A DNA stretch of 16,650 nt from a virus. Its lineage: Duplodnaviria > Heunggongvirae > Uroviricota > Caudoviricetes. Position numbers and translations under genes: made by a program. The notes beneath the pieces were generated by a model. It saw only the letters and a program-made list of their open reading frames with translations, was not told the origin of the DNA and did not search any database. The DNA lies in IMG/VR virus record IMGVR_UViG_2737471869_000028, positions 1-16,650 of that record, one strand, 5' to 3'. This document shows positions 12,464-13,880 of the stretch, piece after piece (positions within the stretch are counted from its first letter, which is position 1; each line of letters begins with the position of its first letter).

Positions 12464-12624
12464 CACGTAATTATTTTATGTGATGGCGCATTCGTTCTTT
12501 ATGCGCAATATCGAGACAGTGAGTTTTTTGATGTTGTCCGCAATGGTGAGGAGTTCTTCGAAACGCAGAGCCGCAATGTAACCCACTGGGTGCCGCTACC
12601 GGAGCCACCGCAGGAGGTGAAGTG

Positions 12625-12909
12625 ATGGACTCCTTCGCGAAATATACGATTATTGACTGGATAACCTTCCTTCAGGTTTTGCTCATCTGGTTTTATATGG
12701 CTTACAGGAGTGGACAGTGGATTGTCAGTGTAGCCTGTAGCAAGGGATGGCGTTGGTGGAACAGAAAGAATAAAAAAGCACTGGCATTGGATTCGCTTTA
12801 CGAAGCATTCAATCTTAACAGTCTTCAGCCTGGTTCTGTCATTGTAGTCACCACTCAAAGCGGCATGACGATACAAATTCACAAGCCAAAGGAGGAAGGT
12901 CGTGGCTAA
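12625..12909 (+). CDS. Small membrane protein (94 aa)
   Basis: N-terminal hydrophobic helix (YTIIDWITFLQVLLIWFYMAY); the ATG at 12625 overlaps the TGA that closes the DUF551 reading frame. Confidence 0.45.
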   Translation: MDSFAKYTIIDWITFLQVLLIWFYMAYRSGQWIVSVACSKGWRWWNRKNKKALALDSLYEAFNLNSLQPGSVIVVTTQSGMTIQIHKPKEEGRG

Positions 12910-13012
12910 CCTGCAACTTGCCGTCAAAGGTGAATACTTCACAGATAGTTTCCCCCAAATTTGGGGAAAATCCCGAATGGCGCGGCTTACAGCAAGATAA
13001 GGCCTACATGAT

Positions 13013-13042
13013 TTGACAAATCCGCATTAACGGGGCTATATT
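13013..13042 (+). promoter_or_regulatory. Sigma70-type promoter upstream of the antirepressor gene
   Basis: TTGACA (13013-13018), 18-bp spacer, TATATT (13037-13042). Confidence 0.5.
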
Positions 13043-13256
13043 CCGCTTCATGGTGCTGAACACACCTTCGAAAGCGGAAACCGCACCCGTCAGTCATGCG
13101 GATTTTTTATGTCCATTTTTCAGATATGGTCGGGTAGCGCGTATACCGAAAAACAGCCGCAAGGCTAAGGATGCGGGCCGAACTTTCGACGGTGTTCAAG
13201 TACCTGACCACCCTGCTGAACACAGGGTAATCTGAACGAATCGAAAGGACATAAAA

Positions 13257-13880
13257 ATGACCAGTCAACTCATCCCCGTATTCAACGGCACTATCGCCAA
13301 CGAAACAGCCCTACTCTGCAATGCCCGCGATCTGCATGCTTTTTTAGGCGTGAAAAAGGTGTTTGCGGCATGGATTACAAATCGCATTTCAGAATACGAA
13401 TTCATTGAAAATCAAGACTATATTTTGCTTTCCAATTTGGGAAAGCAAACATCTGGTAGAGGCGGTCACAACCGCAAGGATTACCACCTCACCCTCGACA
13501 CAGCCAAAGAACTGGCGATGGTGGAGCGCAACGAAAAAGGCCGCCAGATACGCCGATACTTCATCGAGTGCGAGAAAAAACTTCGCAGCATGCAACCAGC
13601 GCAGCAATTCACAGACGAGGAAATCATCCTCCTTTGCTACATGCAGGTACAGATGGAGAATGCGCAGGACATCTGCAAACGCCTGTACCCGATAATGAAG
13701 GAACTTAACTCATCATACGCGAGTAAGCTGTATGACATTGCGTTTGAAACCTTCTATGCGGTGACGAAAAACAGAGATGTACTGCTCAGGGAGGCGACAC
13801 GACTTGACCAGACAAGCGCCGTTTTCGAACGGGCAAGACCAATGTTAAAAAGCCTTCGGGCGAGACAATTCGAATTTTAA
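13257..13880 (+). CDS. Antirepressor-like protein (AntA/Bro-N-type N-terminal domain)
   Basis: 207 aa; N-terminal region (LLCNARDLHAFLGVKKVFAAWITNRISEYEFIENQDYILL...TLDTAKELAM) has the pattern of phage antirepressor N-terminal domains; AAGGA Shine-Dalgarno; own promoter and terminator. Confidence 0.6.
   Translation: MTSQLIPVFNGTIANETALLCNARDLHAFLGVKKVFAAWITNRISEYEFIENQDYILLSNLGKQTSGRGGHNRKDYHLTLDTAKELAMVERNEKGRQIRRYFIECEKKLRSMQPAQQFTDEEIILLCYMQVQMENAQDICKRLYPIMKELNSSYASKLYDIAFETFYAVTKNRDVLLREATRLDQTSAVFERARPMLKSLRARQFEF

What the first reader, a model, noticed from the sequence alone, without database searches (positions are those of the whole stretch)
13013..13256. Structured leader of the antirepressor gene: two hairpins with identical CUGAACA loops and compensatory stems, plus a possible attenuator
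A near-consensus promoter (TTGACA-18-TATATT) drives a roughly 210-nt leader ahead of the antirepressor gene. An 11-nt exact repeat TGCTGAACACA occurs twice (13054-13064 and 13214-13224). Each copy is embedded in an inverted repeat whose arms differ in sequence but stay complementary (GGUG/CACC versus CCCUG/CAGGG), so stem pairing is conserved around an identical 7-nt loop. That pattern fits an RNA hairpin recognised through its loop better than a DNA operator. The first hairpin is followed by a weak stem (CCGCA…UGCGG) and a U6 run at 13104-13109 that could end a short leader transcript. The second hairpin sits 17 nt upstream of the ant Shine-Dalgarno, and a degenerate third copy (CTGAACG) lies at 13232-13238. 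This looks like a cis-regulatory RNA switch controlling antirepressor expression, which I do not recognise as a described element.
Basis: seen in the sequence. Interest (0 to 1): 0.6.

Follow-up and report, generated by a model that had tools for sequence, protein, structure and literature searches.

The report
c4-like antisense RNA guarding antirepressor
The two look-alike hairpins are target sites for a small antisense RNA encoded between them, so this is a variant of the phage P1 "c4" RNA switch that most likely keeps a prophage's antirepressor gene silent.

Summary
TGCTGAACACA occurs exactly twice (13054-64, 13214-24; 0.01 expected by chance), each copy in a hairpin loop, downstream of an 11/12 sigma-70 promoter. 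It matches Rfam sRNA-Xcc1 (RF02221) at 64.3 bits against a gathering score of 53.

Its linker GUGUUCA (a') is complementary to the repeated loops. Its hairpin-2 loop CUUUCGA (b') is complementary to a second repeat, UCGAAAG, found at 13068-74 and at 13241-47, where it overlaps the ant Shine-Dalgarno. P1 c4 has the same a1 b1, RNA, a2 b2 layout.

In 49 distinct related modules with 29 different b1 7-mers:
- b1 is complementary to the RNA's loop in 47.
- b1 recurs before the start codon in 42.
- Mismatched pairings reach only 1.5-4%.

The hairpin plus U6 is a conserved terminator with stem covariation, and it resembles the P1 c4 leader. The downstream genes are almost always antirepressors.

Verdict: a c4/immI-type antisense module built on a different RNA scaffold. 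The searched literature on sRNA-Xcc1 does not give that scaffold this role. It is a new variant of a known kind. Repression by Shine-Dalgarno occlusion is inferred, not shown.

The parts
13013..13042 (+). Sigma-70 promoter: TTGACA, 18-nt spacer, TATATT. The likely transcription start is near 13049.
   Evidence: 11 of 12 matches and the only hit in 12850-13350. TTGACA-type promoters sit at the same position in related loci. The start site is inferred.
13052..13066 (+). Hairpin 1 (GGUG/CACC), which displays target site a1 (UGAACAC, 13057-13063) in its 7-nt loop.
   Evidence: a1 is complementary to the sRNA linker at 13192-13198 (I5). a1 lies in a hairpin loop in 103 of 119 modules, with 33 different arm pairs.
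13068..13074 (+). Target site b1 (UCGAAAG), directly followed by an invariant CGG.
   Evidence: I2 and D2. The 7-mer before that CGG is complementary to the sRNA hairpin-2 loop in 47 of 49 distinct modules, against 2.65% of non-cognate pairings.
13081..13108 (+). Leader terminator: stem CCGCA/UGCGG (13081-85 with 13097-101), an 11-nt conserved loop CCCGUCAGUCA, then A and U6 (13103-13108).
   Evidence: The stem covaries: the fifth pair is A-U, U-A or G.U, and whole stems are swapped to CCAAC/GUUGG, UCAC/GUGA and, in Xanthomonas, CCCACC/GGUGGG. All are followed by a U-run. The element resembles the P1 c4 leader: local alignment score 34 against 17.6 +/- 3.4 for shuffles. The simple terminator scan missed it because its loop exceeds 8 nt. 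Function is not tested.
13104..13125 (+). Post-terminator segment, predicted to pair in cis with the ant translation-initiation region at 13230-13257.
   Evidence: I1, I6, I7.: -19.3 kcal/mol, z = -6.4. Enterobacterial relatives show compensatory variants: AUGUCC/GGACAU, GUGUCC/GGACAC and ACGUCC/GGACGU. The helix is not seen in Pasteurellaceae modules.
13128..13213 (+). c4-like small RNA of the sRNA-Xcc1 family. Closing stem 13128-36 with 13201-09. Hairpin 1 at 13140-75. Hairpin 2 stem 13177-80 with 13190-93. b' is CUUUCGA (13183-89, in the loop). a' is GUGUUCA (13192-98, linker). The 3' tail is ACCC (13210-13).
   Evidence: RF02221, 64.3 bits against a gathering score of 53, E = 7e-10; across 52 distinct homologues 99.1% of cells are paired, all 13 pairs show compensatory changes and many are G.U, so the + strand is the RNA; the + strand folds at z = -2.3 and the - strand at z = -0.8. 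The single-sequence MFE draws hairpin 2 differently, so the covariation-supported consensus is used here.
13210..13228 (+). Hairpin 2 (ACCCUG/CAGGGU), formed by the sRNA 3' tail and the following sequence. Its loop carries a second a-site (a2, UGAACAC, 13217-13223).
   Evidence: I9. The tail hairpin is present in 121 of 129 modules, but an a-site copy lies inside it in only 50.
13232..13238 (+). Degenerate proximal a-site (CUGAACG), next to b2.
   Evidence: A linear a-site a few nt upstream of b2 is the arrangement in all lineages, including those whose tail-hairpin loop has no a-site.
13241..13249 (+). Target site b2 (UCGAAAG, 13241-47), overlapping the ant Shine-Dalgarno AAGGA (13245-49).
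   Evidence: I8, D2. The b1 7-mer recurs within 30 nt before the start codon in 42 of 49 distinct modules, against 3.85% non-cognate. In genomic members with b2, most sites end 3-13 nt before the start codon.
13257..13880 (+). ant, the antirepressor gene (207 aa).
   Evidence: Pfam AntA (1.7e-26) plus P22_AR_C (1.7e-09). The genes downstream of 50 distinct viral modules are antirepressor types.

Best explanation
The 210-nt ant leader is an RNA-based immunity module of the P1 c4/immI type, built on an sRNA-Xcc1-family scaffold.

**Layout, as the sequence shows it**
A strong promoter (13013-42) is followed by:
- hairpin 1, with a1 in its loop;
- b1;
- a terminator hairpin with U6;
- an 86-nt structured RNA (13128-13213);
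- the RNA's tail hairpin, with a second a-site;
- a degenerate a-site;
- b2 overlapping the ant Shine-Dalgarno;
- ant.

**Shown**
- The RNA's hairpin-2 loop (b', CUUUCGA) and 3' linker (a', GUGUUCA) are complementary to the flanking b and a sites.
- These partners co-vary across dozens of specificity variants.

**Inferred, by analogy with P1 c4**
1. Some transcripts read through the terminator.
2. The structured RNA is cut out. Its GGU start, acceptor-like closing stem and ACCC tail fit RNase P processing as in c4.
3. The RNA accumulates and pairs with a2/b2 on ant mRNA, its own or that of an incoming phage of the same specificity.
4. This blocks the ribosome-binding site, so no antirepressor is made and the prophage repressor stays active.

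**Role of the upstream a1/b1 copy**
It sits on a leader that can terminate after about 60 nt. It either lets the RNA feed back on termination, as P4 CI does with seqA, or makes the short leader a decoy that titrates the RNA, as IsrK does in Gifsy-1. Which of the two applies is not resolved.
For: **The RNA**
- It is an Rfam RF02221 hit above the gathering score.
- Its structure is supported by covariation on the + strand.

**Complementarity in the window**
-, I2, I5, I8 and I9.
- The RNA seed pairs with a1/b1 at -24.5 kcal/mol and with a2/b2 at -16.8 kcal/mol.

**Three-way covariation**
- By eye in 6 loci.
- Alignment-free: among 43 specificity types (36 loop variants, 27 linker variants), the loop complement of at least 6 nt is found both upstream and downstream in 33 of 43 cognate cases, against 3.9% of non-cognate cases.
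- Position-defined: 47 of 49 and 42 of 49, against 2.65% and 3.85%.
- Duplex energies: cognate -24.8 against -15.7 kcal/mol upstream, and -18.2 against -12.5 kcal/mol downstream.

**Same layout in the P1 record**
- The order is promoter, a1, b1, c4, a2, b2, with b2 at the icd ribosome-binding site. a' lies in the linker and b' in the hairpin-2 loop.
- The P1 leader terminator is similar in sequence.

**Same genomic role**
- In Stx phages one ant gene is preceded by isrK plus C4, and the next ant gene by this leader plus sRNA-Xcc1.
- Downstream genes of 50 viral modules carry P22_AR, Bro-N, Rha, ORF6N, AntA or KilA-N domains.

**Literature**
- c4 is processed by RNase P at a GGW start, its b' occludes the ribosome-binding site, and its a' gives specificity (PMC5320573).
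- In the Xanthomonas type member, sRNA-Xcc1 is a stable RNA of about 88 nt with mapped ends (PMC2996969).
Against: - There are no expression, processing or reporter data for this locus. The direction of regulation is inferred.
- The Rfam C4, isrK and c4-a1b1 models do not match the window even at E <= 10, so kinship with c4 rests on topology, context and leader similarity.
- In 21 of 53 genomic family members the upstream b1 is present but no b2 is found. SD occlusion is therefore not the universal action of the family, and the leader-RNA pairing may be the primary one.
- A conserved cis helix (13104-25 with 13230-57) could sequester the ant ribosome-binding site on its own, so the RNA's contribution is unclear.
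- The window's single-sequence MFE draws hairpin 2 differently from the consensus.
- There is no icd-like upstream ORF as in P1.
Confidence: 0.75

Rival explanations
1. Attenuation-first model, as in P4. The RNA's main target is the leader. Pairing with a1/b1 just upstream of the terminator (13081-13108) shifts the nascent leader towards the terminator fold. The RNA then limits its own synthesis and ant transcription. Pairing at the SD is a secondary layer.
For: - The upstream sites are the most conserved partners: b1 of at least 6 nt is found in 50 of 53 genomic modules, against b2 in 29 of 53.
- The upstream duplex is stronger than the downstream one: -24.5 against -16.8 kcal/mol in the window, and -24.8 against -18.2 kcal/mol on average.
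- b1 abuts an invariant CGG that, in the leader MFE, pairs with the terminator's 5' arm (GCGG-AAA-CCGC) instead of the terminator forming.
- P4 CI RNA works through seqA and seqC to cause termination (PMC4825925 discussion).
Against: - The CGG and CCG columns show no covariation, because they are invariant.
- In Xanthomonas-type leaders the terminator 5' arm (CCCACC) cannot pair with GCGG.
- In the window and most phage modules, b2 overlaps the SD precisely and co-varies, which is hard to explain if translation were not a target.
Confidence: 0.3
2. Decoy or activator model, as for IsrK. Most transcripts stop at U6. The resulting 60-nt leader RNA carries a1 and b1 and acts in trans as a sponge for the antisense RNA, or remodels the long transcript. 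It thereby switches ant on when the promoter fires strongly.
For: - In Gifsy-1 the short terminated leader IsrK activates translation of the downstream antirepressor-like gene anrP in trans. A processed C4/CI-like RNA (STnc1160) lies between them (PMC4825925).
- In the window, the whole RNA pairs with the whole leader at -56.1 kcal/mol, against -34.3 +/- 4.3 for shuffled leaders.
- The leader site has higher predicted affinity than the SD site.
Against: - The Rfam isrK and c4-a1b1 models do not match this leader.
- The extended complementarity is weaker in other lineages: median z = -2.5, and only 11 of 37 fall below -3.
- No expression data exist.
- This model is compatible with the best explanation rather than exclusive of it.
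Confidence: 0.25
3. The two hairpins are binding sites for a phage or host protein that recognises the CUGAACA loop, in the manner of boxB/N or a coat-protein operator. The leader is a protein-controlled cis switch.
For: - Two hairpins have identical loops and different stems.
- The CCCUG stem loosely resembles lambdoid boxB. That resemblance is from my own recollection and was not tested.
Against: - The loop sequence changes in step with the linker of the adjacent RNA across 27 linker variants, while the neighbouring genes vary freely.
- In Pasteurellaceae modules the second hairpin's loop carries no such site.
- No protein gene is consistently linked to the module apart from ant itself, which belongs to at least six different domain families.
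Confidence: 0.04
4. DNA-level reading. The direct and inverted 7-mers are operator half-sites for a DNA-binding repressor, and co-variation reflects co-evolution with that protein.
For: The same 7-mers occur as direct and inverted repeats around a promoter-proximal region.
Against: - The inverted copies always fall in the loop and linker of a structured RNA whose helices keep pairing through G.U pairs. Those would be A.C mismatches on the other strand.
- One copy always overlaps the SD, and another always lies in an RNA hairpin loop.
- The sites lie 15-230 nt downstream of the promoter rather than over it.
Confidence: 0.02
5. The leader encodes a small protein (ORF 13050-13235, 61 aa), and its translation controls ant.
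For: An ATG-initiated ORF is listed at 13050-13235.
Against: - The ATG is not conserved. Close relatives read CAAGG or CTCAGG at that position.
- No SD precedes it.
- The frame runs through the terminator and the structured RNA.
Confidence: 0.01

Closest known systems
P1/P7 c4 antisense RNA and the immI operon (c4-icd-ant)
   Same: - Same order on one transcript: promoter, a1, b1, structured RNA of about 80 nt, a2, b2, antirepressor.
- a' lies in the 3' linker and b' in the hairpin-2 loop.
- b2 overlaps the ribosome-binding site of the first ORF.
- The RNA starts GGU and has an acceptor-like closing stem followed by RCC.
- The leader terminator and the following GUGUCC are similar in sequence.
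- Specificity is hypervariable, as between P1 and P7.
   Different: - The RNA scaffold differs: a 9-bp rather than a 17-bp closing stem, and a long hairpin 1 with an internal loop.
- The Rfam C4 model does not match it.
- There is no icd-like ORF, so b2 covers ant's own SD.
- An extra a-site sits in a tail hairpin.
- No C1 operator is known at the promoter.
- The host is a lambdoid prophage, not P1.
Rfam sRNA-Xcc1 (RF02221), first described in Xanthomonas campestris
   Same: The window RNA is a member by score: 64.3 bits against a gathering score of 53. The family type member is a stable RNA of about 88 nt (PMC2996969).
   Different: - The published descriptions I could search treat it as a trans-acting, virulence-linked or even cross-kingdom sRNA.
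- None of them describes flanking cognate target sites or a c4-like role.
- Xanthomonadaceae members, some of them upstream of symE, keep a1/b1 but lack b2.
Gifsy-1 isrK-STnc1160-anrP locus (Rfam isrK plus C4)
   Same: A promoter-proximal leader ends at an intrinsic terminator. Read-through yields a processed structured RNA and then an antirepressor-like gene. Leader and downstream RNA are complementary (PMC4825925). In Stx phages this module and the present one sit in tandem before successive ant genes.
   Different: - The isrK and C4 models do not match the window.
- Gifsy-1 uses an upstream ORF (orf45) and translational coupling, which are absent here.
- The demonstrated effect of short IsrK is activation. 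Here the direction of control is unknown.
Phage-plasmid P4 immunity (seqA-CI RNA-seqC)
   Same: A processed RNA from the leader pairs with complementary sequences upstream and downstream of itself on the same transcript (as summarised in PMC4825925).
   Different: P4 acts by premature transcription termination and controls replication genes, not an antirepressor. No sequence or model match was tested here.

Membership tests
Rfam sRNA-Xcc1 (RF02221) | Covariance-model score at or above the curated gathering score of 53 bits | tested here: met
   64.3 bits, E = 6.7e-10, full-length match to model positions 1-87 at 13128-13217 on the + strand. Homologues score 69-86 bits.
Rfam sRNA-Xcc1 (RF02221) | Three-helix fold (closing stem, hairpin 1, hairpin 2) kept by compensatory changes | tested here: met
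   99.1% of cells are paired, against 30-54% in the slid controls, and 13 of 13 pairs show changes on both sides. The alignment was fitted to the model, which favours the structure.
Rfam C4 antisense RNA (RF01695) | Match to the C4 covariance model | tested here: not met
   No C4 match in 12950-13350 even at E <= 10. The same search method finds C4 at 67-77 bits upstream of other ant genes in L002-L005.
Rfam isrK (RF01394) and c4-a1b1 (RF03163) leaders | Match of the promoter-proximal leader to either model | tested here: not met
   No match at E <= 10. Only the terminator part resembles the P1 leader.
P1-type immI antisense control (functional class) | Two RNA segments (a', b') complementary to paired sites both upstream (a1, b1) and downstream (a2, b2) of the RNA on the same strand | tested here: met
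   (I2, I5, I8, I9). The P1 layout comes from its record.
P1-type immI antisense control (functional class) | Specificity segments and their targets change together between immunity types | tested here: met
   33 of 43 cognate against 3.9% non-cognate. 47 of 49 and 42 of 49 against 2.65% and 3.85%. Energies.
P1-type immI antisense control (functional class) | The downstream b site overlaps the ribosome-binding site of the first regulated ORF | tested here: met
   b2 at 13241-47 overlaps the SD at 13245-49, and the ATG is at 13257. Most b2 sites end 3-13 nt before the start codon in genomic members.
P1-type immI antisense control (functional class) | The regulated gene is an antirepressor | tested here: met
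   AntA plus P22_AR_C. Antirepressor-type domains are found downstream of the viral modules.
P1-type immI antisense control (functional class) | A small upstream ORF (icd) translationally coupled to ant | tested here: not met
   Only 43 nt separate the end of the RNA (13213) from the ant ATG (13257), and there is no ORF between them.
P1-type immI antisense control (functional class) | The RNA is excised from the operon transcript by RNase P and represses translation | not testable with these tools
   Only consistent features are seen: a GGU start, an acceptor-like stem and an ACCC tail.

The most novel reading that the evidence does not exclude
The whole sRNA-Xcc1 family may not be a set of free-standing virulence sRNAs. 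It may instead be a second, widespread scaffold for c4-like, self-targeting immunity RNAs. On this reading each copy carries a private 7+7-nt address that is matched by sites in its own leader and usually at the SD of the next gene. That gene is an antirepressor of many families, or sometimes the SymE toxin. The universal interaction would be RNA with leader, next to a conserved terminator, so the core mechanism would be RNA-controlled attenuation and SD occlusion an add-on. This would re-assign an Rfam family's function. It would also define a programmable, hypervariable RNA lock on prophage induction across Proteobacteria.
Probability: 0.45. Interest if true: 0.6.

Novelty: new variant of a known kind. 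Interest (0 to 1): 0.45.

Why it matters
**For prophage biology**
- Antirepressors decide whether prophages, including Shiga-toxin phages, stay silent. The module is present in 126 of 5,426 complete E. coli genomes by near-identity search.
- It recurs in Stx-converting phages.
- It is not annotated in the one RefSeq copy I inspected.

**For the RNA family**
- Recognising it as an RNA lock with a readable address lets one predict which prophages are co-immune at the ant level.
- The searched sRNA-Xcc1 papers list only genome-wide or plant target predictions. A concrete nearby target now gives that family a testable function.

**For experiments**
- The many natural specificity variants are a ready-made set of compensatory mutants for studying loop-linker antisense recognition.

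Tried and rejected
- **RNAalifold on the leader.** A MAFFT alignment of 49 leaders gave only an invariant CGG:CCG pairing, because the hairpin-1 loops differ in length. I replaced it with per-sequence checks.
- **G.U versus A.C counts in site flanks.** I counted these in 9-nt windows around the a and b sites as a strand and RNA test. A.C exceeded G.U (96 against 54). This reflects conserved unpaired flanks and says nothing about pairing. The strand was settled from the RNA's own helices.
- **Extended leader-RNA complementarity.** It is strong in the window (-56 kcal/mol) but only moderate across lineages (median z = -2.5), so I do not treat it as a family feature.
- **Antiterminator idea (GCGG-AAA-CCGC against the terminator).** The window MFE supports it, but it is not general, because Xanthomonas-type stems cannot form it. 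I kept it only as part of a rival.
- **Expression evidence in the STEC vesicle paper.** That paper only lists presence in genomes.
- **Chen et al. 2011 on sRNA-Xcc1.** The paper is not held in the library.
- **Leader ORF 13050-13235.** Rejected because its ATG is not conserved.
- **blastn with an isrK-C4 module.** P1 was not among the records listed. I took the P1 record directly instead.
Full report
**1. The observation**

- TGCTGAACACA occurs at 13054-13064 and 13214-13224 and nowhere else in the window. The expected count is 0.01, and none of 200 shuffles gave two matches.
- Each copy sits in a hairpin with a CUGAACA loop. Hairpin 1 is GGUG/CACC (13052-13066). Hairpin 2 is ACCCUG/CAGGGU (13210-13228).
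- The promoter TTGACA-18-TATATT (13013-13042) matches 11 of 12 positions and is the only promoter-like site in the region.

- a second exact direct repeat, TCGAAAG, at 13068-13074 and 13241-13247;
- inverted copies of both repeats lying side by side at 13183-13189 (CTTTCGA) and 13192-13198 (GTGTTCA).

**2. What lies between the hairpins**

A scan of the whole window against Rfam gave one match above a curated threshold. It is sRNA-Xcc1 (RF02221) at 13128-13217 on the + strand, with 64.3 bits against a gathering score of 53 (confirmed).

The model's fold is a closing stem, a long hairpin 1, a short hairpin 2 and a single-stranded linker back to the closing stem. In that fold CUUUCGA lies in the loop of hairpin 2, and GUGUUCA lies in the linker. 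The two exposed segments of a structured RNA are therefore complementary to the two repeats that flank it. The downstream copy of UCGAAAG overlaps the ant Shine-Dalgarno (AAGGA at 13245-13249; ATG at 13257).

**3. Comparison with phage P1**

This is the layout of the P1 immI operon. The annotated P1 record places the following in order:
- promoter P1c4;
- a1 (48255-61);
- b1 (48269-76);
- the 77-nt c4 RNA (48343-48419);
- a2 (48423-29);
- b2 (48452-59);
- icd, then ant.

Reading the P1 sequence shows that a' (CTGTCAA) is the linker and b' (TCACTAAC) is the hairpin-2 loop. It also shows that b2 lies at the icd ribosome-binding site. I therefore use the P1 names for the window:

| Element | Sequence | Coordinates |
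|---|---|---|
| a' | GUGUUCA | 13192-98 |
| b' | CUUUCGA | 13183-89 |
| a1 | UGAACAC | 13057-63 |
| b1 | UCGAAAG | 13068-74 |
| a2 | UGAACAC | 13217-23 |
| a2, degenerate copy | CUGAACG | 13232-38 |
| b2 | UCGAAAG | 13241-47 |

The P1 leader between b1 and c4 (GCGGACAACCGCAGATTTCCGATATTGCGGTATTTTTGTGTCC) also resembles the window's GCGGAAACCGCACCCGTCAGTCATGCGGATTTTTTATGTCC. The local alignment score is 34, against 17.6 +/- 3.4 for shuffles, and the best of 500 shuffles scored 32.

**4. Comparative evidence**

*Sampling.* Close and distant relatives of the leader occur in Stx-converting and other lambdoid phages and in Aggregatibacter phage Aaphi23. All carry an sRNA-Xcc1 match about 40 nt upstream of an ant or Rha gene. 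A pattern scan of viral contigs and a covariance model built here gave 83 RNA copies, 52 of them distinct.

*The RNA structure.* The fold is strongly supported. 99.1% of cells are paired, against 30-54% when partners are slid. All 13 modelled pairs show changes on both sides. There are many G.U pairs and almost no A.C, which fixes the + strand as the RNA.

*Partners change together.* For example:

| Locus | b' | b1 and b2 |
|---|---|---|
| Window | CUUUCGA | UCGAAAG |
| L001 | CUUUGCA | UGCAAAG |
| L002 | CUUGUAU | AUACAAG |
| Nil2 type (L003-L005) | CUACUUG | CAAGUAG |
| Aaphi23 (L006) | CUGUUUG | CAAACAG |

*Alignment-free test.* There are 43 specificity types, with 36 loop variants and 27 linker variants. 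A loop complement of at least 6 nt occurs both upstream and downstream in 33 of 43 cognate cases. The figure is 3.9% when RNAs are paired with other modules' flanks.

*Position-defined test.* Here b1 is simply the 7 nt before the invariant CGG. Among 49 distinct modules with 29 different 7-mers:
- b1 is complementary to the hairpin-2 loop in 47;
- b1 recurs within 30 nt of the start codon in 42;
- non-cognate pairings reach 2.65% and 3.85%.

*Duplex energies* agree with this:

| Target region | Cognate (kcal/mol) | Non-cognate (kcal/mol) |
|---|---|---|
| Upstream | -24.8 | -15.7 |
| Downstream | -18.2 | -12.5 |

**5.

*Hairpin 1* presents a1 in its loop. This holds in 103 of 119 modules, with 33 different arm pairs.

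*Hairpin 2* is formed by the RNA's own 3' tail (ACCC) and the following bases. It is present in 121 of 129 modules, but only 50 carry an a-site in its loop. The proximal, linear a-site next to b2 is the general one. The identical loops are thus two copies of one antisense target. The different stems are unrelated to each other.

*The stem plus U6* is a conserved terminator-like hairpin.
- Its fifth pair varies: A-U, U-A or G.U.
- Whole stems are replaced by CCAAC/GUUGG, UCAC/GUGA or CCCACC/GGUGGG, always followed by a U-run.
- Its loop keeps CCCGUCAG for reasons I cannot explain.

**6. An extra layer in the enterobacterial lineage**

The segment just after the terminator (13104-13125) is complementary to the ant initiation region (13230-13257) (I1, I6, I7). 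The predicted duplex is -19.3 kcal/mol with z = -6.4. Relatives show compensatory variants: AUGUCC/GGACAU, GUGUCC/GGACAC and ACGUCC/GGACGU. Pasteurellaceae modules lack this helix. In read-through transcripts the ant ribosome-binding site is therefore probably also sequestered in cis, with b2 lying partly in an internal loop of that helix.

**7. Context**

- The regulated gene has AntA and P22_AR_C domains.
- An excisionase, a lambda-type integrase and a host pectinesterase-like gene follow it, so this is one end of a lambdoid prophage.
- The genes downstream of 50 distinct viral modules carry P22_AR_N/C, Bro-N, Rha, ORF6N/C, AntA, KilA-N or ANT domains.
- In Stx phages L002-L005, an isrK plus C4 module (with c4-a1b1 in L003) precedes one ant gene, and the present module precedes the next one. 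The two RNA scaffolds thus occupy equivalent positions.

**8. Breadth, and a caveat on mechanism**

A scan of one genome per species found the RNA in Xanthomonas, Rhodanobacter, Pseudomonas, Bartonella, Neisseria, Desulfovibrio and others.
- Among 53 modules with full flanks, b1 of at least 6 nt is present in 50, but b2 in only 29.
- 21 modules, mostly from Xanthomonadaceae, have b1 and no b2.
- Three of the 51 downstream genes scanned encode SymE toxin.

The pairing of RNA with its own leader is therefore the universal feature. SD occlusion is common in phage ant modules but not universal. This keeps a P4-like attenuation role and an IsrK-like decoy role alive for a1/b1. In Gifsy-1 the short terminated leader IsrK activates translation of the downstream antirepressor-like gene, and a processed C4/CI-like RNA lies between them (PMC4825925).

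**9. Mechanism and confidence**

*Shown here:* the parts, their complementarity, their co-variation, the RNA fold, the terminator's conservation and the gene context.

*Inferred by analogy with c4* (RNase P cut at a GGW start, b' occluding the ribosome-binding site; PMC5320573):
1. The RNA is excised.
2. It accumulates.
3. It blocks ant translation at b2, in cis and in trans.

I put 0.75 on this overall. I am about 0.9 confident that this is a cognate antisense module, and less confident about the direction and main level of control.

**10. What is known, and novelty**

The kind of system is known from P1/P7 c4, P4 CI and Gifsy-1 isrK.
- The RNA is a member of an existing Rfam family. It fails the C4, isrK and c4-a1b1 models.
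- The papers I could search describe sRNA-Xcc1 as a virulence-linked trans-acting sRNA. They note only that it sits upstream of symE or of an ORF6N gene.
- None of those papers describes flanking cognate sites or a c4-like role. The original 2011 paper could not be read.
- A RefSeq copy of the identical locus has no RNA feature.

I therefore class it as a new variant of a known kind, of moderate interest.

Noticed in passing
window 12953-12966: A perfect 14-nt palindrome, CCCCAAATTTGGGG, lies just after the DUF4752 ORF (12622-12909) and 47 nt upstream of the ant-leader -35 box. No U-run follows it on either strand. It could be a protein-binding site or a structural element.
   Followed up: no
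window 13966-16650: Excisionase (13966-14184), a lambda-type integrase (14162-15232), then a pectinesterase-like host gene (from 15367). The window spans one end of a lambdoid prophage, and the ant module is the last cargo before xis-int.
   Followed up: partly
L002-L005, locus positions about 480-790 and 1500-1750: Stx-converting phages carry two tandem RNA-guarded ant genes. The first is preceded by isrK plus C4 (plus c4-a1b1 in L003), the second by the leader plus sRNA-Xcc1. In the L004 C4 module, the loop and linker are likewise complementary to sites in isrK and at the SD.
   Followed up: partly
L043, L092, L053, L054, L078, L124, L031, L077: Single viral contigs hold two sRNA-Xcc1 modules with different a'/b' addresses. 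This suggests several independently locked antirepressor genes per phage.
   Followed up: no
window 13086-13093 and the equivalent position in all leaders: The terminator loop keeps CCCGUCAG even where the stem is replaced. Xanthomonas has UCCGUCAAAC and P1 has UCCGAU. The CGG after b1 (13075-77) is invariant. RNAalifold pairs CGG with CCG in 48 of 49 leaders, without covariation. The reason for this conservation is unexplained.
   Followed up: partly
L134, L160, L165, L182, L185, L207 and others (21 of 53 genomic modules): These modules are mostly from Xanthomonadaceae, and three of the genes downstream of the genomic modules encode SymE toxin. They keep a 7-8-nt b1 in the leader that co-varies with the RNA loop, but have no b2 within 110 nt downstream.
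   Followed up: partly
window 13018-13027 and 13096-13105: The promoter spacer AAATCCGCAT is 10 of 10 complementary to the terminator 3' arm plus the start of the U-run (I3). It lies upstream of the likely transcription start, so it is probably not in the RNA. It may be a coincidence or a remnant of a duplication.
   Followed up: no
L126 (NZ_CP148507.1 3382521-3385170): An E. coli chromosome carries a 100% identical copy of 13013-13262. Its RefSeq annotation lists only the antA/AntB CDS there and no RNA feature.
   Followed up: yes
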